Shown here in pieces: positions 6,423-34,381 of a stretch of DNA of 64,000 bases. Every line of letters starts with the position of its first letter. Position 1 is the first letter of the stretch. Origin of the DNA: a virus (lineage: Duplodnaviria > Caudoviricetes); IMG/VR virus record IMGVR_UViG_3300028914_000062, positions 70,924 to 134,923 of that record. One strand, given 5' to 3'. The notes beneath the pieces were generated by a model. It saw only the letters and a program-made list of their open reading frames with translations. It searched no databases and was not told the DNA's origin. A program made the position numbers and the translations under genes.

Positions 6423-7031
6423 TTATTTCTCTTCTTTTTCTTCTTTCTTCTCAAACATCTTCTCTGTTGCCTTCGCAAGCGGATCGATGCCATTAAGAAG
6501 CATACCAAGTCTCTCAAGATCCTCAGTCTTCATTTTCTCCTGGAATTCCTGAAGGCTCTTAGTCATCTCATCGATCTTCGCCGGATCAATCTTGTCAAGT
6601 TGATCGCGGTTACTTAAAATAACATTCCAGTTAATCGCATTCGCATAAATTTCTTTAAGTTTCGCATAGTCCTTCGCACAAACCTTCTCAATATCATCAA
6701 GAAGGCCTGTGGGCTCCAGGAAATCTATAATATCAACCGTATTAAACATTTCAACAAGATCATTCTCAATATTGGTGTATAATTCAATCAAGCCAAATAC
6801 CTCAATATTGGCGAGTTGTTCGAGGCCTAAAATTATAATATCATTATCAGTACTAAATCTCATAATCGCTTTCACAAGCGCCACGTTCTTATCCTTAACA
6901 GGAGCATACTCTCTGACAATCAGACGTCTTTTAATATTCGCCAGAGCATCGGCGTGCTCACCATTCTAGTCATCATCAAGCTGCATTGCATGCAGCATAA
7001 TTTCGCTAAGTTGTATATTCTTTTCTAACAT
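6423..7031 (-). CDS. Hypothetical protein, possible tail assembly chaperone (202 aa, code 15)
   Basis: ATG 7031 with AAGGAG RBS; one in-frame TAG (6966-6968) joins it to track ORF 6423-6884. Confidence 0.7.
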
Positions 7032-7054
7032 AATAAAAGTCTCCTTTCATATCC

Positions 7055-8038
7055 TTAAAAATCAAACTTATCTTTTTGCTACTGAAGCATCTTCGGATCA
7101 ACCTTAATATAATGCTTCTGCGTAACATCCAAACCTTTGTGATTCAAAAGTTTAGATATATCTTCCAATTCCATACCCAAATTCTTAAGCAGTGTAGCAC
7201 CACTATGTCTAAAATCATGCGGGTGGAGTGTGGACACACCAATCAAATTGCCAATAATACGCGCCCACAGGAACATAACGGAGGCGTCAGTAATGCCGCC
7301 GCTTTTTGTTACAAATAATAGTCCATTGTCCTCAATCTGCATTTCGGATCGAAACGCCTTGAGTTTTTCTAGAAGCTCTTTAACCTCGTTGGAAAAATAC
7401 AATGAAACAATATATCCTTCTTTCTCAACAACGTCATTAATAACGCGCCCCTCCAAATCGATCTGGTCCCATTTAATAGAACTAACTGCACTGGCGCGGG
7501 CCATCGTTGATAAAGATAACATACCATAAACCCAGACTTCAAGAGCCAAATGTCTTGCAGTCACACCAACAGCCGTCTCAAAATTCTCTGCAAGCTTCTC
7601 TCTCATCAAAGTCACTTGTTCCGGCGTCAGGTAGGTCTGCACTACAATATCGGTATCCTTCTGCGGACGACTCACATCCTCCATCGGATTTACAGTAATA
7701 ATTTTCTTCTTTCGTAAAAACTTATAGAAAGCTGCGAGAGAGCTAATGCGTCTCTTAAGGCGACGGGAATTATTCCCTTGCTCTTTACAGAAATAAAGAA
7801 AATCAGTAATGTCGTCCTCATCCAGGTCCGTAACACAGCGATTCTACTGCTCGTCCAAAATATAAATCCACCACTACCGTAGATCGCTATAATACTGGTA
7901 GATCGTATCTTCTGACAGTTCACGTAGCTTCATATCTTTTTCATATTTCTTCCATAGCTACAAAGTTTCTGCGTTTACTTTTGCGAGCTTTTCTGCATCA
8001 AACAGTTCAATCCGCTCGCTTCGAGTTCCGATCGGCAT
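7055..8038 (-). CDS. Tyrosine recombinase, XerC/D-like (327 aa, code 15)
   Basis: Catalytic R (MARAS), HxxR (HPHDFRHS), H and Y (LLNHKGLDVTQKHY). N-terminal domain restored across 3 TAGs; C-terminus reads through TAG 7079 to TAA 7055. Confidence 0.9.
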
Positions 8039-8729
8039 AAGTCTCTCCCCTTTCTTTCATGTTTTGTAATAGTTTAATTTGATTTTGGACCCTCTACTTG
8101 GCAGCCGCTGCCTTCAGGGTCTTATCCTTTTTGGTAAGCGCCTTGATTTCTTCCTCAAGGTCTTGCTGCTCCTTTCTCATAAACAGGGTGATCCACAAAG
8201 CGGCAGCATCCGAAATATCCAACGTCATATTCTTCGGGATCACGTGATGACCATAATGCGAAGAAACCCAAGACTGTATATCTAGTTTCTCTGGGTGCTC
8301 CACTCCGGTCAATTTTTTAAACAGGGCTTTTACACTCACTGAGTGTATTCCGTATCCATAATAATCCAGTCCCAATTGATCTACAACGAGATCGAGGACT
8401 GCATGAGCTTTTGCCAATCCTTGTAGAGTCGCTATAGTAGAGAATTTACTCTACTGCGGCATCATTTCCCTTAATACAAAAACATCCTTTTGAAGATCAG
8501 TGATCTTAGTTGAGCCTTCATTTTTCTGAATTATATCAAATAAAAGGTTGATTTTATTGTATAAATCCAAAACCGGAGTCTCACTCTTTGGGGATACGGA
8601 AATTTGGTAGTAAGATACAAGTCTATCTTGGTGCACATCGATTACGGCTACGCCTGTTTCATATTTAGCCAAATCGAACGCAACGCAATATTTGTAATCA
8701 TAAATGCTTTTCTTCAACTGAAAGTTCAA
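8007..8729 (-). CDS. RuvC-like Holliday junction resolvase (code 15)
   Basis: AFDLAKYETGVAV, VLRE and DISDAAA acidic motifs; fragments 8451-8729 and 8094-8417 are in frame and joined at TAG; next true stop is TGA 8007. Confidence 0.75.
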
Positions 8730-8772
8730 CTAAAAGCACACTCCTTTCTTCCATTTTAACCTTTAATAAAAC

Positions 8773-8801
8773 AATTGGGAGAGACTTTCGTCTCTCCCAA
8801 T
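8773..8801 (-). terminator. Intrinsic terminator
   Basis: ATTGGGAGAGAC/GTCTCTCCCAAT stem followed by a T-rich tail on the minus strand. Confidence 0.7.
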
Positions 8802-8804
8802 CCG

Positions 8805-9086
8805 TCACTCGGAAATCTCTTTCTTAAGCTCGTCTTCATCGGCGACCATATAAGCCCTCTGTTCGGGGACCGAAGCTTTTTCGGTATCCTCAACGGTGGC
8901 CGTAGTGGTCTTCTTTTTCCTTTTTGTACGAGCTTTAGTCGCAACTTCCTTGTCTTGAGAGATAGTCTCAATTTCTTGTTTGTCCTCCACGGGAAGGACG
9001 AATTCCTCTTGCTTGTGCGCTATTTGCCATTTCTTTTTGCGCTCTAATAAATCTTTTAGAGTAACTCTTTTATTGACCAGAGCCAT
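8805..9086 (-). CDS. Hypothetical protein (93 aa)
   Basis: ORF overlapping the holin stop; ends TGA. Confidence 0.6.
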   Translation of the reverse strand: MALVNKRVTLKDLLERKKKWQIAHKQEEFVLPVEDKQEIETISQDKEVATKARTKRKKKTTTATVEDTEKASVPEQRAYMVADEDELKKEISE

Positions 9087-9456
9087 CTAAATCCTCGGTC
9101 TCTACATGCTCGGCCAAAGGCTCTGCAAGTAATTTTTGTTCCTGCATATTATTCGAGAAACTAATTATCTCGTCAATATATGCGCTGACTTGAGTAAGGT
9201 CAACATTGCTAATTCCAATACTTTTACAGAATTGGGTTACCATGTCTATAACCATTTGTTTCTTATCTGCTCCCGAAAGGCCGGTCGCTTCAGCAACCTG
9301 AGCGGCATCTCTAATGGCATCAAGAATTTTAAGCCAGTTTTTGTCTTCTTTAATAGTTTTAAAAGATTTATAAAGATTAATTGCAAGAGTTAAAATAGTG
9401 GCCAATGCAGTACAGCCACTAACGATTAGGCCTATTATGGCCTCAACAGTATCCAT
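9070..9456 (-). CDS. Holin, LL-H-like (128 aa)
   Basis: N-terminal hydrophobic helix followed by AQVAEATG.SGADKKQMV pattern. Confidence 0.65.
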   Translation of the reverse strand: MDTVEAIIGLIVSGCTALATILTLAINLYKSFKTIKEDKNWLKILDAIRDAAQVAEATGLSGADKKQMVIDMVTQFCKSIGISNVDLTQVSAYIDEIISFSNNMQEQKLLAEPLAEHVETEDLDGSGQ

Positions 9457-9486
9457 ATTATTGGCCCCTTTCTTATATTAAGATAT

Positions 9487-9518
9487 AATCAGGAGAGAAA
9501 ACAATTCTCTCCTGAATA
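9487..9518 (-). terminator. Intrinsic terminator-like hairpin
   Basis: TCAGGAGAGAA/TTCTCTCCTGA inverted repeat after tail gene. Confidence 0.55.
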
Positions 9519-9522
9519 TAAA

Positions 9523-10905
9523 TTATGCCAATACCAAAGTGGTTATACCACAATGTTCTACTTTATTATTCTCGTCAAGTGTTACAACTACACAAGCATA
9601 TCCCGGAGCTCCACCTGTAGCCGGCAGTAAAAAGCCACCCCCAGCAAGTGTTGCGCTATTCCAATTACCAGAAAGAGTGTCTCCTATAGCGGGAATTGCA
9701 ACACTGACTCCTGTTTTATAATAAACAGTACCTTGAAGAACGGGCGAAATTGTAACTATCCAATCTTGTCCGTTTTTCCGATTAGTTACGGCTAAGTCAC
9801 CTATAGACTCTCCAAATGTAGTTGTTAAATTACTATATCCGGTACTATAAGTTAAAGTATAAGCGGCAGCATTGCCAAAATGCACTATACCATTTATGCA
9901 ATAAGTGGTAGTATAACCATATGGAGAATCCGAGGTAATTTGTGTATTAATTGCTGTCATTCCAGGCGGAGTGGGGTCTCCTCCGTTAGCATGAACTAAT
10001 ACTGCTACGGTTCCATTATCATAAATACCATATAAAGGAGCATTCGTGCCCTTCACATATCCTGTAGCAGCATCTACGATAATTCCCACAAGCCCTTCAT
10101 TAAGAGTTCGTCCCTTAACAGTTTCAATAACGCGGACTAATTGTCCATTAATCATATCGCATCCACTGAAGTCTGCAAGAGCAGTGCCCGACAATTCCAT
10201 TGTTGTATTGGAACTCATATTAAACGTAAAATTTTGCGCTCCATTAAGCTTAAACCTAGGAATTTCAAACGTCAACGTACCGGCAAATTTCCCATTTGCA
10301 GTAGCACAAGCGTCCCCAGAAAAAATAGGAGCGGTAATAATCAAATACAACTCTTCTGGAATAATATTAGAAGTAATAATAGCATCCCTAGCTTGCTCAT
10401 CGGTAGCAAGATAACGAATGCAATATTCGTCATCATTGGTAGAACCAGGAATCGTTACTTCGGCCGATTCAACTACCAAGGTGTTCCACACCTCGGAACC
10501 GGATCTGGAATACCAAATGATCTTATCATTATCAGTATCGCAAGCAACTTGCAAAGCAAGGGGATTTTTACTCAGAACAATTTTCCCAGTGATTTTATCG
10601 CCCACTTTAAGAGTTTCGCTCTGATATGCTGTTATATCCGCACCTGTCTAAAACATAGCCCCAAGTTGCGCCTCCAGATAAGACTCTTTCCAGAAGATAT
10701 CTGTTAATGTAATTTCTACATTAGGATCATGATAAAAATTCGTAACAATGGGAGCACCTGTGCCTCCACGAAGATCGTCTTTAGTTGTAGAAATATTAAT
10801 AGAAGAATCTGTTAATGTTTTACACACAAAAGCAAGTTGACGACCAACGGCCGTATTACGAAAAGCTTCTGCGCTACCTACTGATCCAAGAAAATATTTG
10901 GACAT
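9523..10905 (-). CDS. Major tail (tube)-like protein, paralog 2 (460 aa, code 15)
   Basis: 10648-10905 and 9523-10605 are in frame and joined at TAG 10648; strongly similar to 11092-12219. Confidence 0.75.
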
Positions 10906-16837: not shown

Positions 16838-17935
16838 TTAGCCACCGATAGTGAGGGTACCGAATTTCGAACCAACTATGGCCGAAATACCGACCTTCAT
16901 CTTGATGGAGATGCCGTAGGTACGGTCATTGGTCTCTTCGGGGATGTTCTCGATGGTTACCGAGTCGCCTTCGAAGACAACCTTGACAGGACGATACGAA
17001 TCAGCAGCTATGAAGTAAATCTTGTTGTCAGCTATCGAGAGGGTAGCCGAGGTGTTGGTGGTACCAGGAACAAGTACGTTATCAACAGGGATAAGAGGAG
17101 TGTTGAGGTACTTATCGAGGAAGCCTTCCTTAGCTATCTCGGAGCCAAGACCATACTGGAGACCCTGGACAGTCGGGTAGACGTTGCCAAGAGCACCAAG
17201 GGTGCCTATCGCATAGACAGCGGCGCCGCCATTGGCAGCACGAACTCTCTCACGAAGAGCGGTCCAGTTGGCGTTGCTGAGACCAGAAGCAGAATAACCA
17301 GCGCCGACTTCAGAGACAGCAGAGGTCATCGCGGCAATTATCTTAAGGAAGATGTAGCCTTCGAACGAACGGCCAGCTCTAAGAGCGAAATCGCCCCAGT
17401 CAAACACGCCAGCAGCAACAGGATACCAGTCGACAGAAGTGGCTATCTCGATGGTACCGCAGTTGACGGTATACTCATCATCGTAAATGGGCTGGAGGAC
17501 ACCACGATTGATACCTTCGGCAACCTCATTAACTTTGAAGAGCTCATTGGACTTTACTATGAAACGAGCAGTGTCGCCCCAGCCAACCTGGACGACTTCA
17601 GCAAGGAACTCCGCATATCTCGCCGAGGTGACCTCGGGAGCAACGGCGTTGATTATCTGAGCTATAACAGCGTTGAAGTTCTCACGGACAGCCTGAGATC
17701 TGACTACCATGGGATTCTTGAAGAGTGCGGCGCCCTGGGTCTCAAACATAGACTCATAACGGGTGTCGGCGACCGAGAATTTAACGACAGCTTCGTTTAT
17801 TTCTCTCATCTTGTCGGCATAATCGGGAACGACGATGCCCTTTCTCTTATCGCGAGCGGCGATAATGACGGAATCAACGATGGCGTTGAAGCCTTCATCG
17901 TTGGATCTTTTATATTCAAACGATTCCATAATCAT
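16838..17935 (-). CDS. Major capsid protein (365 aa)
   Basis: Size, strong codon bias, synteny after protease and decoration genes, SPbeta-like order; no TAG. Confidence 0.8.
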   Translation of the reverse strand: MIMESFEYKRSNDEGFNAIVDSVIIAARDKRKGIVVPDYADKMREINEAVVKFSVADTRYESMFETQGAALFKNPMVVRSQAVRENFNAVIAQIINAVAPEVTSARYAEFLAEVVQVGWGDTARFIVKSNELFKVNEVAEGINRGVLQPIYDDEYTVNCGTIEIATSVDWYPVAAGVFDWGDFALRAGRSFEGYIFLKIIAAMTSAVSEVGAGYSASGLSNANWTALRERVRAANGGAAVYAIGTLGALGNVYPTVQGLQYGLGSEIAKEGFLDKYLNTPLIPVDNVLVPGTTNTSATLSIADNKIYFIAADSYRPVKVVFEGDSVTIENIPEETNDRTYGISIKMKVGISAIVGSKFGTLTIGG

Positions 17936-17960: not shown

Positions 17961-18515
17961 TTAAAGGCTTATAACTTCGCAGAGATAGATGTTGCCATTG
18001 CCCTTCTGGCCAGTGGTAAGACCTTTCTCAAGCTGAATTTTAACACCAAAGCCACCCGACGGAGCGGCGGCATTGGGAGTAAGAATGACATCACCAGCAG
18101 TGACGCCAGCATACTGACCAGCAACAGGAGTGCTAGCAAAGTTGTCTTCACCAAGCCAGAATTTATCGTGAACCTGAGGAATACGAACTCTGGTAACAGT
18201 ACCAGCAGGAACAGTCAGGTTAAAGAGCTTGTTGCCCATTTTGTAAACGTTACCAGCTATAGCGCCTTCAGAAATACCAGCATAGTCGACTATCGCGACA
18301 GGAGAGTTGGCGCCTTCGGGAGCTTCAGCATAATAAACGTTGTATTCCACATCACCATTGGCGGTATAAGTGGTATCGGTAACGAGGTTACCAAGAGTGA
18401 CAAAACCACCGTCAATAACGGGGGCGTTGGCATTATTGGCCTGGAAGAGCGCACCAACAAGGAGCGGGCGGACGGTTTCAGAAGCCATTATGCCTTTAGA
18501 AAAAAGATGTGCCAT
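17961..18515 (-). CDS. Capsid decoration/stabilising protein (184 aa)
   Basis: Gly/Ala/Val-rich, directly upstream of capsid gene; no TAG. Confidence 0.65.
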   Translation of the reverse strand: MAHLFSKGIMASETVRPLLVGALFQANNANAPVIDGGFVTLGNLVTDTTYTANGDVEYNVYYAEAPEGANSPVAIVDYAGISEGAIAGNVYKMGNKLFNLTVPAGTVTRVRIPQVHDKFWLGEDNFASTPVAGQYAGVTAGDVILTPNAAAPSGGFGVKIQLEKGLTTGQKGNGNIYLCEVISL

Positions 18516-27208: not shown

Positions 27209-28465
27209 TTAATCAAGATTTATTCTAAAGTCAAGATCGTTTTTGCCATCAAAAACTATCAGCGTCTGCGACGGTCTCGAATACAGACTCTTCTGCATTG
27301 CATAAGTATCGACACCCTTAAGAGATCCGTTTACATAAACTTTCGCAGAGTTAAACTCTTTCGTCTTCGCACTGTGGAAATGTCCCAGGCAAATGTAATC
27401 AATATACGACTGCAAAGCACCGGTAAAATTCTGATAAGCTGTATCAGTCGCAAAAGTATGACCGTGAGCATATCCAACTTTTCTGCCATCCCAGAGTTTA
27501 AATACTCCCATAGTATCGCTCATATTTTCAAACTCGAATATAACATTCTCAACATTACTGAGCTGAAGCCTCATCTGAAGCGCCCAGTTAATGAGATAAA
27601 TCAGATTATCATCATCAGTGGATTCTTTCCAGTTCTGAATAACTCGATCATGGTTACCAACGCAACTCCTATATTCAATGCAATCAACATGTTCTGCAAC
27701 AGTTGTAAGGAAGTGAGCGAGAAGCTCGGTTGCCTGAATAACCTGATCGCAAGTATTAAGTTCGTTTGTTACTCGAACAGTTACGTGTATTTCTCCTTCG
27801 ATAAGATCACCAAGATCGAGCACGTGAAGCGTGGTAATATGAAACATTTCGCAATATTTAATAACTTCCTGCGCGAGTTTTTCCACTCTCTTAACCGCAA
27901 TCTCATAATCAAACTTGTTATAAAAATTATTCACATAGCTGCCTATGTGCCAGTCAGAAAGAAGGAATATACCTTCGCGGGCATCGTTAGGATCAAGATG
28001 ACCGCCTTGTCTCTAGAACTTAAGAGGAGGCATGGTCTTAATCGCTTCAACAAGTCTATCTTCAAGAACACCAAGTCGGGCGTCTTTTCTTAACTCGCTA
28101 CGATACTCTCTTACTGCATCTCTGGCAGTGGTCATTGTCTTATAAAGCTCAGCCGCCTTCTGTTCCTCTTCTGTCTTCTCTGGGTTGAGAGGAGAAACCG
28201 GCTCATCTGGGACCGCAATATAATCAGGGTTCTTGGGAAGGGTTCCATCTTTTTCCTGGCGATGCTTTACCCAAGCTCTGAGCTGTTCGCCGCTATCTTT
28301 TGGTGTGTGGAGTGCTTCATTCAATGCCGCCCAATTCTTTTCAGTATGCGGGAGAAGTTTATACTTTAAACCAATCGCATAAATATCGTCAAGGGTCAGC
28401 GTGCCATTGTCAATCTTGTCGGTGTATTCTGTTAAAAATTCCTAGAACTGTTCCTTAGTAATCAT
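27209..28465 (-). CDS. Calcineurin-like metallophosphoesterase (418 aa, code 15)
   Basis: SDWH, GDLIE, GNHD, HGH and GHFH motifs; joined at TAG 28013 and 28442. Confidence 0.85.
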
Positions 28466-28588
28466 AGAATCTTTCCTTTCGCGTCTTATATTTTCAGTGA
28501 ATTTTTCTCGTTATTTTGCACTTTGCAGTGCTTTTCTTCCCTTTCTCAATACCAATGTTTTAGGTCATGGTCTAATTTATCTATGGTA

Positions 28589-29641
28589 TTATTGCACATT
28601 CTAGACTGTATTTTGTTTATGAGTGGCCTTTTTAGGGATATTTTTAATATCGGCCGCAAAATAATACTTGCTTCCAGAGAGAGATCGTCGAGCGCAAAAC
28701 TCTCCTGTACGGTCCCATCTGGTTAGCGTATGAGGATTAACTCCACATAATTGAGCAAATTGTTTCATATTCAGCATGGTGCAGTTCTCGCAGTATTTTT
28801 GAGGGCGGCGATCATGAGCATATGTGTAAAACTCCTAACCACAATGAGCACACTTTACTAAACGATTAAACTTCGATTTACACTCGTCACATAAATCTGT
28901 TTGTTTCTGATAGTGCTCTCCAACGATTATCTTCTACCCACACTTACTGCAGTTTACAGATCCTTTGTCACAAAGAGATAGAATATCCTCAATACCGGTT
29001 AAATCGTTATCCGTGATCACAAGGGGTATCCCATTGTAATCAATAGTCTTCCCAGAGTCTTTGATGTTATAATCAATCAGAACCTTCATCTGGACTTGTG
29101 CCCTTAAAGGGTTCAACTCAGTCTCATACAAATGCAGCTGTTGGTTCCATGTCGCCATCTTCTATCTCTTTGAAGGTTTCATATCGTGCTCCATACCGAT
29201 TTTCTTAAGAATAACACTTTCAACGGTCAATGAAGAATACGGGAATGGCTAAGAGGGGAATACCTTGGACATTGCCAATAGGCACACCAAATATTTTCTA
29301 AACCATTGCGCCACAGGTAGAGAATTGATATAATCCAATTCCTCCTACCAAATCTTCGCTGGCCGATAATGCGTCGAGTACAACAAGTTCTTTTGCATCG
29401 ATATTGACCAGATTAGATTAAACCCTGCTCTGAGATCGTCAATATCGTGATAGAGATTATAAGACTCTGTCATCGGGTTCTCTGTCTTCTTCCAGATTTC
29501 AAAGATTTCTTCCTTGGTCTTCTTCTCCTCTGTGTATAAATACTAACAGAGCGCTACCTCTTCAGAAAAGATCTTGTACTTGGTTAAGTACTTACCCGTC
29601 TATAAAACTTGCTATATACTCTTGTTATAATCTAAAAGCAT
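28589..29641 (-). CDS. Putative transcription regulator with zinc ribbons and a C-terminal MerR-like HTH (350 aa, code 15)
   Basis: ATG 29641 with AAGGAG RBS; CSKC/CDEC/CAHC/CENC; LNMKQFAQLCGVNPHTLTRWDRTG; about 9 TAGs. Confidence 0.65.
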
Positions 29642-29670
29642 AGGGGTCTCCTTTCTAATATGCTGTCCAT

Positions 29671-29711
29671 AGTATACCACACTTTTTCTTATTTGTCAAG
29701 TGATATATCAC
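29671..29711 (-). promoter_or_regulatory. sigmaA promoter with palindromic operator GTGATATATCAC
   Basis: TTGACA-17-TGnTATACT; perfect 12-bp palindrome abutting the -35. Confidence 0.8.
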
Positions 29712-29789
29712 TATTTTTGAAATTTTCTTTAACTTTCTCCCTTATCTTTCAGTTAATCTATAATTCTGCATAAAACTCTAATTTCATTG

Positions 29790-30175
29790 AATATTCATAC
29801 TAGTATGCATATCTATACTAGTATATATATAAAATATTAATAATACGCGCATGTTTATACACGCACGCGCATACGCGGGAATAATTACTCAAATAATTAT
29901 TAATATTTATAATTATATTAATAATATAACACACTACAGGGCTTTATTCTGCTATAAGCCCCTTTCTTTGCTTCTTTCTTTCCGGGGAAAGAAAGAAGTC
30001 TTTCTTTTGGTATCTTTTCTTTCTTTAGAAAGAAAAGTACAATTTACTAAAATAATATAATATATTATATTCTCTTTATTTTCTCTTTATGTTACTTTCT
30101 CTTTTCTTTCTCTTGAGGGATTAACGCTTCGCGGCGCGCACACGCACACACGCGTATTATATATATAAGCAAAAA
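29790..30175. other. Candidate replication origin / AT-rich control region
   Basis: Non-coding gap at the strand switch; AT-rich; hairpins at 29971-29998 and 30014-30037; flanking CGCG/CACG tracts. Confidence 0.4.
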
Positions 30176-30188
30176 AATTTTTAAAAAA

Positions 30189-30229
30189 GTGAAATATCAC
30201 TTGACAAATAGAAAGGGATATGGTATAAT
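30189..30229 (+). promoter_or_regulatory. sigmaA promoter with operator GTGAAATATCAC
   Basis: TTGACA(30201)-17-TGnTATAAT(30224). Confidence 0.85.
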
Positions 30230-30271
30230 AAAGGGGATAAAGAGAGTTTTCAAAAAAATTTTTTCAAAATA

Positions 30272-30312
30272 GTGATATAGTACTTGACAAATAGGGTACT
30301 ATGTGCTATAAT
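30272..30312 (+). promoter_or_regulatory. Second tandem sigmaA promoter with degenerate operator GTGATATAGTAC
   Basis: TTGACA(30284)-17-TGnTATAAT(30307). Confidence 0.8.
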
Positions 30313-30371
30313 ATTAATAACTTAAGGGGGATCATCCCCAAGACAACACCCAGGAAGGATGAGCAACAAAA

Positions 30372-30980
30372 GTGAGCCTTATATCAAAAACAAATCTCTT
30401 TATCGACTTTGATGATACAATCGTCAATTCTGCAGAGACTATAATCAAAATACTAAACGAACGCAATTGTACCAGAAAAACAATTGTCGATCTGAAAGGC
30501 TGGAATTTTGAAGGAATAGCCTAGTGCTCCAGAGAAGACGTTATAGCGCTCTTTGAGAGTTAGAGCTTTTTCGATCGTTTAACCTTTCAGCCCGGCTTTT
30601 AGGAATTCTTAAACAATTATGCGAACAAGTTTAACTTAAATGTCGTATCCATTGGAACCGAAGAAAATCTGGCCAAGAAAAAGCAATGGCTGGATAAGAA
30701 CCTTCCCAAAGGAACGAAGTATCATCTAATCTCTTCTAACGTGGAAGGAAAGTTTGATAAGTCCTCCATCGATATGTCTAAGGGCATATAGATCGACGAT
30801 CGTACTGATTGCCTGCAAACCAATGCCGGTATCAAAATATTACTAAAAGACTATGAGTTTCCGTGGAATAAGACTACGGGCACAGAAGACAACCTCTACA
30901 TAGCCTCCTCTTGGAAGGAAATTGTAGAAATAATTTTATTCTTCGATAAAAACAAGAAAATGATTTGCCCCTGCTACTAA
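30372..30980 (+). CDS. HAD-family 5'(3')-deoxyribonucleotidase-like protein (202 aa, code 15)
   Basis: LFIDFDDTIVNS (motif I), K..WL, GI(TAG)IDD (motif IV), PWN; 4 TAGs; absent from the ORF track. Confidence 0.85.
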
Positions 30981-31001
30981 TTACAGAAAGAAGGCTTTGA
31001 T

Positions 31002-33800
31002 TTGCCCGTTAGACAAAACCTGTATTAGATCTATAAGCTGCCTTCCTCGCTTATAGTGAAAAATAATTGCAACATCCCCTCATACACAATCAAACAGGCC
31101 AGAGCCGAAAATACGCTTATTTCCATCAGTGATAACTTGGTCTTCCATCAGATTAGAAAGTACTACAACGATTTACGGACGCCCGATTAGATTTACGACT
31201 ATGTTTAGTCCTTGCGCTCCAGTTTAAGATATTATCGTCGTGAAGGCTTAACCAAAGAAGCCAATAACATTAACAACCAGATCACTTCTGTTCTCTTTGT
31301 GAAAGATATCATCAACATCGAGGTTATTAAAAAATCCGATTACAAACAATTTGGTGTGAAAGGTTTTGACGTCAATGGCATTCACTATAGACGGTTCTGC
31401 TGCGGATCTGGTCAAATGCGAAGAAACACAATCACCTTTATCAACGAGGAACTTTACGACACAATCTTTACCAATCTAATGTGTGACTTGGGTCACCGAA
31501 TTAGTGAATTTAATCTGGCAAAGTATCATGCATATTTTGCGTTGGCATTTTCCTCAGTGCTTTGGGTCAGAACCCCAAGGGTTTGTGTTATCAAAGATTA
31601 TTATCGCACCCTTAAAGAGGAACCGGTCGATTTTATTACTAAAAAGAACGGCAAGTCAATAGTGGAACCTCGCCACATGGATATCGAACTTAACTGCGCA
31701 GATGGTCAAGGGCTTATTGATCCATCATTCGCTGCACAATGGGCAGAAGACATGGCACAAGATTATGTTCCTTCGTCTTTTGTGGTACGAAGCGTATTTA
31801 TCAAAGGCAATTTGGTCCCATTTGATTTTAGAGCATACGCCAAATCGTAGGGAATTGACAAAATATATGACAAGTGGGGTAGGTCTTATCCCATAGACGA
31901 AATCGATGTCATCTTAAGCGAATCGCAGTTCAAGATGCACAAGTATTACAGCTCTTGGCAAGAATACAAAAAATATGCCGACGCTGCTGATATTAAATGG
32001 GGCGTTGCGAGATATAATAGAAAACGCGATGACGAGTTCGTACAAGCGAATTATCAATATATTTAGACCCTGGGTATTAACAAAGAAGATACCATCAAAA
32101 TGATCTAGCCGACGATCGATTGGATCCATAAGATTTGCTCCGGTGATGAACTATTTGGTTTATTGTTTGCAATAGGCGGAGGGTGCGGAGATTTAAGCTA
32201 CGACTCTTTATTACGAGCGACCGAATCCACTGCCATAAAGGCCGTCGTTAAGAATCACGAAATGATTCACGATGGATATATTCAGGCCAAAATGTATAAA
32301 ACCATTGCGCGTCTTATTGAGAAAGCAAAGATTGGTAAAATCTGGGTCCACGGCAATTATCAATTTATGATTTCTGATCCTCTTGCGCAATGTCAAAGTG
32401 CTCTTGGCTTGGAACCGAAAGGTTGCTTGGGCAAAGATGAAATCTGGTCCAAATTCTGGACAGAGAGATATCCCGAAGGCCGCACCATTGACCTTTGCCG
32501 CAGCCCGATGATCGATGAACATGAACACAATCCCATGCTTTCAATTGCATAGAATGAGACCGTTGATGAATGGTTTAAATATATCAAGAGTGGCATAGTG
32601 TTTAATACTTACGATACCAGTACCTTGAGAGCAGAAGATGCCGACTTTGATGGCGACATTGTGTTTTCTACTGACAACGATTACTTTATCAATGGCGCTC
32701 ATAAAGACCACAATATCATTACTTACGAAAAGGGCTCCGCTCCACTGCAAAAGGTTACTCTGGAGAACCAGGTTAAAACCGATATACGGGGACTTGGGAC
32801 TGGTGTTGGTGGATTCAGCAATTGTGCCACAATTATTGAGACCATGAAAGCACAGTTTTTACAAGATAATCAAAAGTCTCAATATGATGAATTGTGCCTC
32901 AGAAAGAAGCTTCTTCGAGAGATTGTGGGACAAGAGATCGATCGCATCAAAGGTTCTGCTGCTCCCGTCCTTCCCTCTGAATGGAAGCATTTTGAAACCA
33001 TTAACGAAGACGACGATGATGCCACCAAGGCAGAGAAATACCGTCACAATTCAATGGTTCTTTCCAAGAAGCCTTACTTCTTCAGATATCTTTATCCAGA
33101 GTTAAATCAGAAATATAAGCGCTATGAGAATGCTTATAATACGATTGCTCAAGCTCAGTTCGGTGCGAAGTTTAAGAAAGTCCTTGGCAAATAGAATAAA
33201 ACTCCTACTGAACTTCAACTTGTAAAAAGATTTTACAAGTTCAGTCCTCTACTTGATTCTCCCTGTACGATGAACAACATCTGTCACCTTTTCGAACACG
33301 AAGACTTTAGAATCAAGTACGATAGAGAAAACATTTCTCTTCTCCCCACTTTCGACGATGAGTTCGAATTTGATCCGGAGAAGTTAACATAGATCAAAAA
33401 AGCATACAACATATTCTCTTCGAGGATGCAGCTCCATGCCTTGGAAAGAGCCTGGGATATCTACAATACCACAGACTCCACAGCGTCGCTTCCTTACTCA
33501 ATTGAAGAAGAAGATTACGTCAGAATGAGAAAAACTCTTCTTGATCTCCTTCGCACCAATTGTTGGGATATCATGCGCGGCATCTCCTCAAAAGAGTTTC
33601 TGTATTACTGCGGACAACTATCCAAAATTTACAGACAGTTCAACTGGGGCTTTGCCTGGGATATGCTTGGAGAAAACATTATTGATTTAATCCCAGAAGG
33701 AGAAACAGTGGTTCCCGTAGAAGATCCAAATGGACAAGAATACTTGGGCAAAACTTATATTCTTAAGTCTGTCCCTCATGAAAAGGAGGAAACGCCGTGA
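31002..33800 (+). CDS. YonO-like single-subunit two-barrel RNA polymerase (932 aa, code 15)
   Basis: Catalytic DADFDGD, ADGQGLI, IKG, SQFK, NYQYI(TAG)TL, RSP and EID; four track fragments in one frame; 9 TAGs. Confidence 0.9.
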
Positions 33801-34381
33801 CCAAAAATCAACAAACTCTTGGACAAATAATGTTTATGAACTTAATGATGGGCAGAATCATTGTACCAGCTTCAGTATTCAAAGAGCTTATACCGGATAT
33901 CAAACCGGAGGAAGTTAAAGAGTTCTGGAATATGATCCCCGAGTCTCCTCCTTTTCCCAATTTGAAAGAGCCCGTATCCTTGCAATGTCCTCACCCAAAG
34001 AATCTTATGTTCTGGCTCTTCTTTAACTGCGGCATTTCAAACTCATTATCCTTTAATGCCAAAGCAATAAACGAACCAGCAATTGCGGTTGAGTTAACCA
34101 GTCAAGAAGAAGCGTTGCTTGCCTGCCTCGAAGACGCTGATGTCGGCGCTTATGTAAGAGCCTTATGTTGTTATCGTACTCTGCACCCTCATCAATCAAA
34201 CTGGATCAAGTACGATGAGAACGAGATCTTTAAACTGGCTGGATTGAAGCCGGAGAAGAAGAAAGAAGTTTACAAGAAGATAAGAGAAAAATACCCCGAT
34301 CTGATTGAGTTCAGAGTTATGGGGAAGAATACTCCGATCTCTTGCTTTAAATTAAATATAACAGGAGAAGAAGAGTCATGA
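33797..34381 (+). CDS. Hypothetical protein (194 aa)
   Basis: GTGA overlap with the RNAP stop; RBS. Confidence 0.65.
   Translation: MTKNQQTLGQIMFMNLMMGRIIVPASVFKELIPDIKPEEVKEFWNMIPESPPFPNLKEPVSLQCPHPKNLMFWLFFNCGISNSLSFNAKAINEPAIAVELTSQEEALLACLEDADVGAYVRALCCYRTLHPHQSNWIKYDENEIFKLAGLKPEKKKEVYKKIREKYPDLIEFRVMGKNTPISCFKLNITGEEES

What the first reader, a model, noticed from the sequence alone, without database searches (positions are those of the whole stretch)
28589..33800. Divergent regulator and RNA polymerase pair both locked behind amber codons
Seen: host-type promoters drive, divergently, a Zn-ribbon/MerR-HTH protein (TAG at codons 10, 14, 33 and later) and an operon with a YonO-like RNAP (TAG at codon 9, nine in total). 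Established: SPbeta YonO transcribes late genes. Inference: the code switch gates late transcription itself, an AND gate of promoter derepression and TAG suppression, in addition to gating translation of structural genes.
Basis: partly seen in the sequence, partly recalled or inferred. Interest (0 to 1): 0.75.

Follow-up and report, generated by a model that had tools for sequence, protein, structure and literature searches.

The report
Phage RNA polymerase needs amber suppression
A 135-kb gut phage related to Bacillus phage SPbeta, which reads the stop codon TAG as glutamine, carries nine TAGs in its own RNA polymerase gene, so the enzyme cannot be made until the phage's TAG-reading tRNA works; this extends a known timing trick from late proteins to the likely late-gene transcription enzyme.

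Summary
The gene at 31002-33800(+) encodes a 932-aa YonO/RdRP-family RNA polymerase with nine in-frame TAGs, the first at codon 9. The gene at 28589-29641(-) encodes a 350-aa zinc-ribbon/HTH protein with nine TAGs (codons 10, 14, 33 and six more). Consensus host-type promoters face both ways.

- TAG means Gln here.
- The RNAP's TAG share of Gln codons (22%) matches the late genes (29%). It differs sharply from the genes downstream on the same strand with no promoter between (1.6%).
- In at least four or five independent recodings within this SPbeta-like family (TAG=Gln and TGA=Trp), the RNAP gene again carries recoded stops.

Three points are not supported.
- The "regulator" is the conserved first gene of the late operon, not a divergent MerR regulator.
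- The promoters belong to one genome-wide class of about 20, so I see no specific derepression.
- The late operon has its own host-type promoter, so dependence of late transcription on the RNAP rests only on homology and synteny with SPbeta.

TAG conservation in close relatives is no higher than the synonymous baseline.

This scan noted the same idea before on other DNA (e1-5936731, e1-5686070). I rate it a new variant of a known kind.

The parts
28589..29641 (-). It encodes 350 aa with 9 in-frame TAGs. Domains: helical bundle, winged helix, zinc ribbon (C231/C234/C251/C254), second zinc ribbon, and a C-terminal MerR-type HTH (aa 291-334).
29671..29699 (-). Host sigma-A/sigma-70-type promoter of the late operon (TTGACA, 17 nt, TGn-TATACT). 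It is the only promoter of this class for the 53-kb late gene arm.
29700..29711 (.). 12-bp palindrome GTGATATATCAC abutting the -35 element, centred near -41.5. Variants of this element precede nearly all ~20 promoters of the phage. Related copies lie at 30189-30200 and 30272-30283.
29712..30170 (.). Non-coding core of the divergent region. It holds perfect hairpins (29971-29998, 30014-30037) flanked by inverted alternating purine-pyrimidine GC tracts (about 29843-29874 and 30118-30152). Function is unknown; candidates are a pac/genome-opening site or the RNAP's own promoter.
30201..30312 (+). Two tandem consensus host-type promoters (30201-30229 and 30284-30312). They head the 29-kb rightward arm.
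30372..30980 (+). NT5C-like 5'(3')-deoxyribonucleotidase gene, 202 aa, with 4 TAGs among 7 Gln codons. It lies just upstream of the RNAP gene with no promoter of the phage's class between them.
31002..33800 (+). YonO/RdRP-family single-chain RNA polymerase, 932 aa, with 9 in-frame TAGs, the first at codon 9. The catalytic DADFDGD motif lies at aa 546-552 (nt 32637-32657).
33797..34381 (+). Conserved 194-aa partner gene downstream of the RNAP. Its start overlaps the RNAP stop codon (GTGA). It has 0 TAGs.

Best explanation
The window belongs to a TAG=Gln recoded gut phage of 134,923 bp that is a distant relative of Bacillus phage SPbeta. Host RNA polymerase starts transcription at about 20 near-identical consensus promoters. 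These include the promoters of the suppressor-tRNA region, the two tandem promoters in front of NT5C-RNAP, and the single promoter at the head of the 53-kb virion/lysis operon.

The RNAP message is probably made early. It lies on the same strand as TAG-free genes of early, anti-defence type, with no promoter of the phage's class between them. Ribosomes stop at codon 9 until the phage's intron-split tRNA(CUA) is spliced, charged and abundant enough to outcompete release factor 1. With nine TAGs, the yield of full-length enzyme scales roughly as the ninth power of suppression efficiency, so it behaves like a threshold.

By homology and synteny with SPbeta YonO, the finished enzyme then transcribes the adjacent late operon, or boosts its transcription. 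The products of that operon need the same tRNA. The circuit is therefore a coherent feed-forward loop: the tRNA permits the RNAP, the RNAP makes late mRNA, and the tRNA also permits the late proteins.

Shown: the TAGs, that TAG encodes Gln, the promoters, the family membership and synteny, and recurrence of recoded RNAP genes in independent lineages.

Inferred: early transcription of the RNAP message, that the suppressor tRNA is rate-limiting, and that this RNAP transcribes the late operon.
For: RNAP identity:
- Pfam RdRP PF05183, 40 bits against a cut-off of 23.8.
- tblastn to SPbeta yonO, 27% identity, E 9e-25.
- Invariant D546/D548/D550/G551/D552.

Synteny with SPbeta:
- The order RNAP ... 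yonJ-like metallophosphoesterase, yonG-like, TerL, portal is shared.
- YonO transcribes the SPbeta late operon from a start site next to its own gene.

TAG encodes Gln:
- Position 355 is Q in 53 of 53 standard-code homologues, and position 69 in 45 of 53. The background Q frequency is 3.9%.

TAG share of Gln codons:
- RNAP 9/41 = 22%.
- Late arm 29%.
- Plus-strand genes downstream of the RNAP 1.6% (Fisher P = 4e-6).
- Early arm 4.6% (P = 3e-4).

Transcription units: a weight matrix built from the phage's promoters finds no other promoter of the class between 30284 and 59722. The downstream genes there are of DUF932 and PcfJ type.

Close recoded relatives (L007, L008, L009) keep 10-11 TAGs in the RNAP, including codons 9 and 69, and keep the same rich/poor pattern across neighbouring genes.

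Survey of 76 IMG/VR loci plus a tree: there are at least 4-5 independent recodings, each with recoded stops in the RNAP.
- L020 group: TAG at codon 20.
- L076: TAG at codon 32.
- L059: TAG at codons 50 and 907.
- L011: TAG at codon 355.
- TGA=Trp lineages L021 and L050: 6-7 TGAs at conserved Trp sites. The RNAP and its two flanking genes form a recoded island, followed by ten or more genes mostly without TGA.

Late genes of this phage place their first TAG within 30 codons in 13 of 27 cases, against 7.1 +/- 1.8 expected (P = 0.002).

Suppressor tRNA: a group I intron match and a CUA anticodon arm lie at genome 21563-21849(-), downstream of an early-type promoter.
Against: - The late operon has its own near-consensus host-type promoter (29699-29671), so host RNAP may transcribe it without the phage enzyme.
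- No promoter for the YonO-like enzyme could be identified.
- The suppressor tRNA sits behind the same promoter class as the RNAP gene, so any delay rests only on tRNA maturation and accumulation.
- TAG codons in the RNAP are no better conserved than synonymous codons. They are identical in all three close relatives at 4 of 12 TAG-containing Gln columns, against 32-50% for two-fold codon families.
- TAG and CAA/CAG interchange freely.
- TAG number in the RNAP varies from 0 to 11 among recoded relatives. Most members of the L024 group have none.
- The contig is estimated 81% complete, so other transcription factors may be missing from view.
Confidence: 0.55

Rival explanations
1. Passive drift. 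The RNAP is simply expressed after the suppressor is active, so CAG/CAA-to-TAG changes are neutral there and accumulate. The TAGs mark timing but were not selected as a gate and add no useful delay.
For: TAG and CAA/CAG interchange at Gln sites among close relatives, and TAG conservation equals the synonymous baseline. The RNAP's TAG density is the same as in late genes. The TAG count in the RNAP ranges from 0 to 11 across recoded relatives.
Against: The RNAP lies on the same strand as TAG-free genes, behind host-type promoters of the early class, with no promoter of that class between them. The same recoded island around the RNAP arose independently with TGA=Trp in L021 and L050. In lineages with only 1-2 TAGs in the RNAP, the TAG lies at codon 20, 32 or 50 in three of four. 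My own hand estimate for this under uniform placement is roughly 1e-3 to 1e-2, from a small sample.
Confidence: 0.3
2. The RNAP is a virion protein. It would be made late, packaged and injected to transcribe early genes in the next cell, as in crAss-like phage phi14:2 gp66 or N4 vRNAP. Its TAGs would then only reflect late synthesis.
For: In TAG- and TGA-recoded crAss-like phages the virion RNAP genes carry recoded stops (PMC7886860). The RNAP here has a late-gene TAG density.
Against: About 20 consensus host-type promoters precede the early genes, so no injected polymerase is needed. The gene lies outside the virion operon. SPbeta YonO acts on late genes.
Confidence: 0.05
3. The zinc-ribbon/HTH protein is a classical MerR-type regulator of the divergent promoters and controls RNAP expression.
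For: The MerR_1 HTH match is above the cut-off (24.8 against 21.6 bits). The gene abuts the divergent promoter region.
Against: The HTH is C-terminal and no coiled-coil or effector domain follows it. The promoters have 17-bp spacers, not the 19-20 bp of MerR targets. The conserved core (aa 1-260) occurs without the HTH in standard-code relatives, always as the gene directly upstream of the yonJ-like gene. The PHROG hits to the HTH are terminase small subunit, transposase and excisionase, so a role in packaging initiation or as an RNAP cofactor is at least as likely.
Confidence: 0.1
4. No switch at all. The host itself reads TAG as Gln, or carries a suppressor, so the RNAP is made at once.
For: None was found. 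The host is unknown.
Against: The 66 early-arm genes (13,086 codons) hold 20 TAGs, and the 36 plus-arm genes downstream of the RNAP hold 4. The 32 late genes hold 216. The phage carries its own tRNA with a CUA anticodon arm. The sister clades use the standard code.
Confidence: 0.03

Closest known systems
YonO of Bacillus phage SPbeta (Forrest et al. 2017, PMC5467207)
   Same: Both are single-chain RNAPs of the RdRP/two-barrel family with a DxDGD catalytic motif. In both, the gene lies next to a long late operon that contains yonJ-like, yonG-like, TerL and portal genes. The genomes are of similar size (~135 kb).
   Different: Identity is only ~27%. Here the RNAP and the late operon are divergent rather than co-directional. 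The gene carries nine in-frame TAGs. The late operon has a consensus host-type promoter. Activity and targets are untested.
Stop-codon-recoded gut phages (Borges et al., bioRxiv 10.1101/2021.08.26.457843), probably their 'Agate' clade
   Same: TAG or TGA is recoded in structural and lysis genes. Early genes use the standard code. The code changes between close relatives. The proposed role is post-transcriptional timing of late genes.
   Different: That paper never mentions a polymerase (0 occurrences). Here the recoded set includes the phage's own RNAP, which puts the code switch upstream of a transcription step. Membership in the Agate clade was not tested.
crAss-like phages with recoded RNAP genes (Yutin et al. 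2021, PMC7886860)
   Same: A two-barrel phage RNAP gene is interrupted by reassigned TAG or TGA. Introns also occur in the RNAP genes.
   Different: The crAss RNAP is a giant virion-packaged enzyme for early genes. Here the enzyme is a 932-aa YonO type, not in the virion operon, and by homology serves late genes.
Phage early-to-late cascades through a phage RNAP (T7 class; from my own knowledge)
   Same: Host RNAP transcribes the phage RNAP gene, and the phage enzyme then takes over later genes.
   Different: In T7 the delay is set by transcription and genome entry. Here an extra translational lock (nine TAGs) would set it.

Membership tests
YonO-type single-chain two-barrel RNAP (Pfam RdRP PF05183) | Significant match to the family profile | tested here: met
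   PF05183: E 2.8e-10, 40 bits against a cut-off of 23.8, aa 110-650. phrog_8308: E 2.7e-90.
YonO-type single-chain two-barrel RNAP (Pfam RdRP PF05183) | Catalytic DxDGD metal-binding loop | tested here: met
   DADFDGD at aa 546-552. D546, D548, D550, G551 and D552 are invariant in 15 homologues.
YonO-type single-chain two-barrel RNAP (Pfam RdRP PF05183) | Direct sequence similarity to SPbeta YonO | tested here: met
   tblastn to yonO of SPBc2: 26.9% identity over aa 120-612, E 9e-25. BUCT082 homologue: 29% over aa 8-924.
YonO-type single-chain two-barrel RNAP (Pfam RdRP PF05183) | Two double-psi beta-barrel domains in one chain | tested here: inconclusive
   The AlphaFold2 model has mean pLDDT 60, and the core (aa 440-580) is below 50. 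There is no sequence match to any solved structure.
YonO-type single-chain two-barrel RNAP (Pfam RdRP PF05183) | DNA-dependent transcription of the late operon | not testable with these tools
   Only synteny with the SPbeta late operon supports this.
Code-15 (TAG=Gln) recoded phages with a late-gene bias | In-frame TAG at conserved Gln positions | tested here: met
   Position 355 is Q in 53/53, position 69 in 45/53 and position 9 in 26/53 standard-code homologues. TAG interchanges with CAA/CAG in relatives.
Code-15 (TAG=Gln) recoded phages with a late-gene bias | Early genes avoid TAG and late genes use it | tested here: met
   TAG share of Gln codons: 4.6% in the early arm, 1.6% in the plus arm downstream of the RNAP, 29% in the late arm.
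Code-15 (TAG=Gln) recoded phages with a late-gene bias | Phage-encoded suppressor tRNA(CUA) | tested here: inconclusive
ARAGORN finds none. A sub-threshold group I intron match (26.7 bits, E 9e-4) is flanked by a tRNA-like body with a GTTGG / CUCUA.. / CCAAC anticodon arm at genome 21563-21849(-).
MerR-family transcription regulators | N-terminal winged HTH followed by a dimerisation coiled coil and an effector domain | tested here: not met
   The HTH lies at aa 291-334 of 350, at the C-terminus, and only a low-confidence tail follows it.
MerR-family transcription regulators | Target promoters with over-long 19-20 bp spacers | tested here: not met
   All three local promoters have 17-bp spacers.
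Terminase small subunit | DNA-binding HTH plus an oligomerisation core, encoded next to TerL | tested here: inconclusive
   The phrog_57 match covers the HTH only (E 4.5e-5). Two genes separate it from TerL. The fold search gives only winged-helix and helical-bundle matches at Z <= 6.6.

The most novel reading that the evidence does not exclude
In SPbeta-like gut phages, selection repeatedly places recoded stop codons (TAG=Gln or TGA=Trp) in the phage RNA polymerase gene, often near its 5' end. The genetic-code switch would then be the master timer of late transcription as well as late translation. Multiple stops would give a steep threshold, and the circuit would be a feed-forward loop built from a tRNA.
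Probability: 0.4. Interest if true: 0.7.

Novelty: new variant of a known kind. Interest (0 to 1): 0.55.

Why it matters
Stop-codon recoding in phages is currently seen as a brake on translation of virion and lysis proteins. If the phage's own late-gene polymerase sits behind the same brake, one small RNA controls both transcription and translation of the late programme. That is a simple and testable circuit. It would explain why recoding keeps re-evolving in this family, and it would help annotation, because these polymerase genes are split into fragments by standard gene callers. It also suggests a compact design for a synthetic timer based on suppressor tRNA.

Tried and rejected
- **Close relatives in IMG/VR:** the single-protein scan found nothing. 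The alignment-based scan worked.
- **Total ORF length under alternative codes:** uninformative, because removing any stop codon inflates spurious ORFs. I did not use it.
- **Foldseek of the regulator model against the PDB:** no match at E <= 0.001. VIA-align gave only generic winged-helix and helical-bundle matches at Z <= 6.6. A profile search of solved structures matched only zinc ribbons.
- **RNAP structure:** the model was too poor for a fold search, and there is no solved homologue by sequence.
- **Rfam on 28400-34000:** only a chance miRNA-like hit on the hairpin.
- **Promoter for the YonO-like enzyme:** I compared the divergent region with the SPbeta yonN-yonK gap and with the intergenic regions of relatives, and saw no shared motif.
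- **Terminators in the late operon:** I found none convincing that could make host RNAP stop.
- **Phage sigma factor or serine recombinase:** none found.
- **Conservation of the codon-9 TAG as proof of selection:** rejected, because it does not exceed the synonymous baseline.


Full report
**What is there**

The window is bases 70924-134923 of a 134,923-bp linear virus contig. CheckV estimates it as 81% complete.

With TAG read as Gln, 31002-33800(+) is one 932-codon frame with nine TAGs, at codons 9, 63, 69, 283, 355, 369, 517, 731 and 797.

28589-29641(-) is a 350-codon frame with TAGs at codons 10, 14, 33, 99, 131, 160, 236, 269 and 347. The longer GTG-initiated frame from the ORF listing starts upstream of the promoter's -10 element, so it is not the gene.

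The 690-nt gap between the two genes holds three promoters with an extended -10. One is leftward, TTGACA-17-TATACT at 29699-29671. Two are rightward and tandem, TTGACA-17-TATAAT at 30201 and 30284.

An NT5C-like gene (30372-30980) with four TAGs precedes the RNAP gene.

**Identity of the RNAP**

- It matches Pfam RdRP PF05183 above the cut-off.
- It matches SPbeta yonO by tblastn (27% identity, E 9e-25). The Spbetavirus BUCT082 homologue aligns over aa 8-924.
- It carries DADFDGD at aa 546-552, and the D/D/D/G/D residues are invariant in 15 homologues.
- An AlphaFold2 model was too weak in the core to test the two-barrel fold.
- The 5.8-billion-protein search found 752 relatives. Many are 50-59% identical and lie on contigs of 110-160 kb.

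**Family context**

In standard-code relatives the gene order is: NT5C-like, RNAP, a ~190-aa gene, a ~250-aa gene, YonJ-like metallophosphoesterase, YonG-like, TerL, portal. This is the SPbeta order yonO ... yonK-yonJ-yonG-yonF.

Here the left arm reads: 350-aa protein, YonJ-like exonuclease, 430-aa protein, TerL, portal, and so on out to the tape measure. So this phage is an SPbeta-like phage whose RNAP block and late operon are divergent. Several relatives share this arrangement.

Forrest et al. showed that YonO transcribes the SPbeta late genes as one operon, from a start site upstream of yonK. They left the promoter and any cofactors open.

**The "regulator"**

Its first ~260 residues are homologous to the ~250-aa gene of the relatives.

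In all 27 loci where that gene was found, it lies directly upstream of the yonJ-like gene and is co-oriented with the late operon. This holds whether the operon is co-directional with the RNAP or divergent from it. It is therefore the conserved first gene of the late operon.

The model has mean pLDDT 82. It shows a helical bundle, a winged helix and a four-Cys zinc ribbon. Fold matches are only generic, at Z <= 6.6: ORC/Cdc6/DnaD/TFE-type winged helices and primase helical bundles.

The second zinc ribbon and the MerR-type HTH (aa 291-334) occur only in this sublineage (P0244 from L007). The protein fails two defining features of the MerR family: domain order and promoter spacer length.

The protein binds DNA by prediction, but its role is open. 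It could be an RNAP or late-operon factor, a packaging initiator or a regulator.

**The code**

- In the RNAP, TAG positions 355, 69, 9 and 369 align with Gln in 53, 45, 26 and 23 of 53 standard-code homologues. The background Gln frequency is 3.9%.
- TAG interchanges with CAA/CAG between close relatives.
- ARAGORN finds no suppressor tRNA.
- At genome 21563-21849(-) a sub-threshold group I intron match is flanked by a tRNA-like body whose anticodon arm reads CUA across the insertion.
- That tRNA lies downstream of a promoter of the common class at genome position 22556(-).

**Where the TAGs are**

I called genes with a simple caller of my own and then corrected the RNAP start. The TAG share of Gln codons is shown below.

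| Gene set | Genes | TAG share of Gln codons |
|---|---|---|
| Early minus arm | 66 | 4.6% |
| Late arm | 32 | 29% |
| NT5C + RNAP | 2 | 27% |
| RNAP alone | 1 | 22% (9/41) |
| Plus-strand genes downstream of the RNAP | 36 | 1.6% |

The RNAP differs from the genes downstream of it (Fisher P = 4e-6) and from the early genes (P = 3e-4). It does not differ from the late genes (P = 0.38).

A weight matrix built from the phage's own promoters finds 20 strong sites and one atypical site. It finds none between 30284 and 59722 on the plus strand, and only one site for the whole 53-kb late arm.

So the RNAP lies in what is probably one transcription unit with TAG-free genes of DUF932, DUF4314 and PcfJ type. 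This contrast within one probable transcript is hard to explain by transcription timing alone.

Late genes also tend to place their first TAG early. It falls within 30 codons in 13 of 27 genes, against 7.1 +/- 1.8 expected (P = 0.002). This result depends on my start-codon calls.

**Relatives**

Three closer contigs (L007, L008, L009) have RNAPs 85-93% identical in protein to this one. About 47% of codons for identical residues differ between them.

- They carry 10-11 TAGs in the RNAP, including codons 9 and 69.
- They are TAG-rich in NT5C and TAG-poor in the downstream genes.
- Codon-level conservation of TAG is 4 of 12 columns identical in all three. This does not exceed the 32-50% seen for two-fold codon families, so it is no proof of selection.

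A survey of 76 IMG/VR loci, together with an RNAP tree, shows at least four or five separate recodings inside mostly standard-code clades. In each, the RNAP holds recoded stops.

| Lineage | Recoded stops in the RNAP |
|---|---|
| L020/L069/L075 | TAG at codon 20 |
| L076 | TAG at codon 32 |
| L059 | TAG at codons 50 and 907 |
| L011 | TAG at codon 355 |
| L021 and L050 (TGA=Trp) | six to seven TGAs at conserved Trp sites |

In L021 and L050 the small upstream gene, the RNAP and the next gene are recoded. Of the genes after them, ten in L021 and nine in L050 have no TGA, before single TGAs appear further downstream in L050.

Most members of the weakly recoded L024 group have no TAG in the RNAP.

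**Promoters and the "AND gate"**

All promoters share one architecture: an A/T tract, GTGAtATatCrC, TTGACAAA, 14 nt, then TGnTATAAT.

The 12-bp palindrome is centred near -41.5. In L007 it changes in a compensatory way to GTCAnATnTGAC. This points to a phage-specific dimeric DNA-binding protein that acts on every promoter. Nothing distinguishes the divergent promoters from the early ones, so a specific "derepression" input is unsupported.

The late operon's own host-type promoter also means that late transcription may start without the phage enzyme.

**Literature**

- Recoding as a brake on late and lysis genes is established as a hypothesis (Borges et al.). That paper does not mention polymerases.
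- Recoded RNAP genes are known in crAss-like phages, where the enzyme is a virion protein for early genes.
- No paper in the library combines YonO with recoding.
- This scan has made the same point on other DNA (e1-5936731, e1-5686070).

**Verdict**

The sequence facts are solid. The dependence of RNAP synthesis on suppression follows directly from them. Whether this is a selected gate on late transcription remains an inference. Convergent recoding and the contrast within the probable transcription unit support it. The host-type late promoter and the neutral-looking TAG turnover weaken it.

Noticed in passing
L007:9009-10058; L008:2430-2742; L001 (MT835481.1):2087-3036; L012:7747-8001: Many relatives have an insertion in the RNAP gene at residue ~550, inside the catalytic DxDGD motif. 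It is 0.3-1.0 kb long and in L007 carries a 238-aa ORF. It looks like a mobile group I-type intron. The copy in the window (32637-32657) is uninterrupted.
   Followed up: partly
window 29700-29711, 30189-30200, 30272-30283, and upstream of nearly all ~20 promoters genome-wide: A 12-bp palindrome (GTGATATATCAC consensus) abuts every -35 element, centred near -41.5. In relative L007 it changes in a compensatory way to GTCAnATnTGAC. This suggests a phage-specific dimeric regulator that acts on the whole promoter set.
   Followed up: partly
window 29712-30170: The core of the divergent region holds two perfect hairpins (13 and 11 bp) between inverted alternating purine-pyrimidine GC tracts, and the layout is kept in L007. 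In SPbeta the pac/genome-opening point lies in the equivalent gap upstream of the yonP-yonO operon, so this may be the packaging start.
   Followed up: partly
window 29699 and 30201/30284: Each long arm has promoters of the phage's class only at its head: 53 kb leftward and about 29 kb rightward. By contrast, the 47-kb early arm has 14 promoters.
   Followed up: yes
window 16838-17935 and 17961-18515 (-): A 365-aa gene in the capsid position of the virion block (PHROG matches only to families of unknown function) and its 184-aa neighbour have no TAG at all, although they lie inside the TAG-rich late operon. This would fit avoidance of TAG in the most highly expressed late genes.
   Followed up: no
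window 7055-8038 (-): A tyrosine recombinase (Phage_integrase, E 1.4e-18) with four in-frame TAGs lies in the late arm. This is unlike the TAG-free integrases reported for recoded temperate phages.
   Followed up: no
L011 (153.5-kb ENA contig), 6799-10841: This relative seems to be at an early stage of recoding. It has single in-frame TAGs in the RNAP (at a conserved Gln), in NT5C and in the YonJ-like gene. TerL and the YonG-like gene have none.
   Followed up: partly
genome 18292-18382 (-) = L010:1293-1383; genome 17198-17275 (-) = L010:199-276: A fifth, 91-nt tRNA-like gene is found by Rfam (45.8 bits) but missed by ARAGORN, and I did not resolve its anticodon. A sub-threshold match to the c-di-GMP-I-GGC riboswitch (45.9 against 59 bits) lies next to the tRNA cluster.
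   Followed up: no
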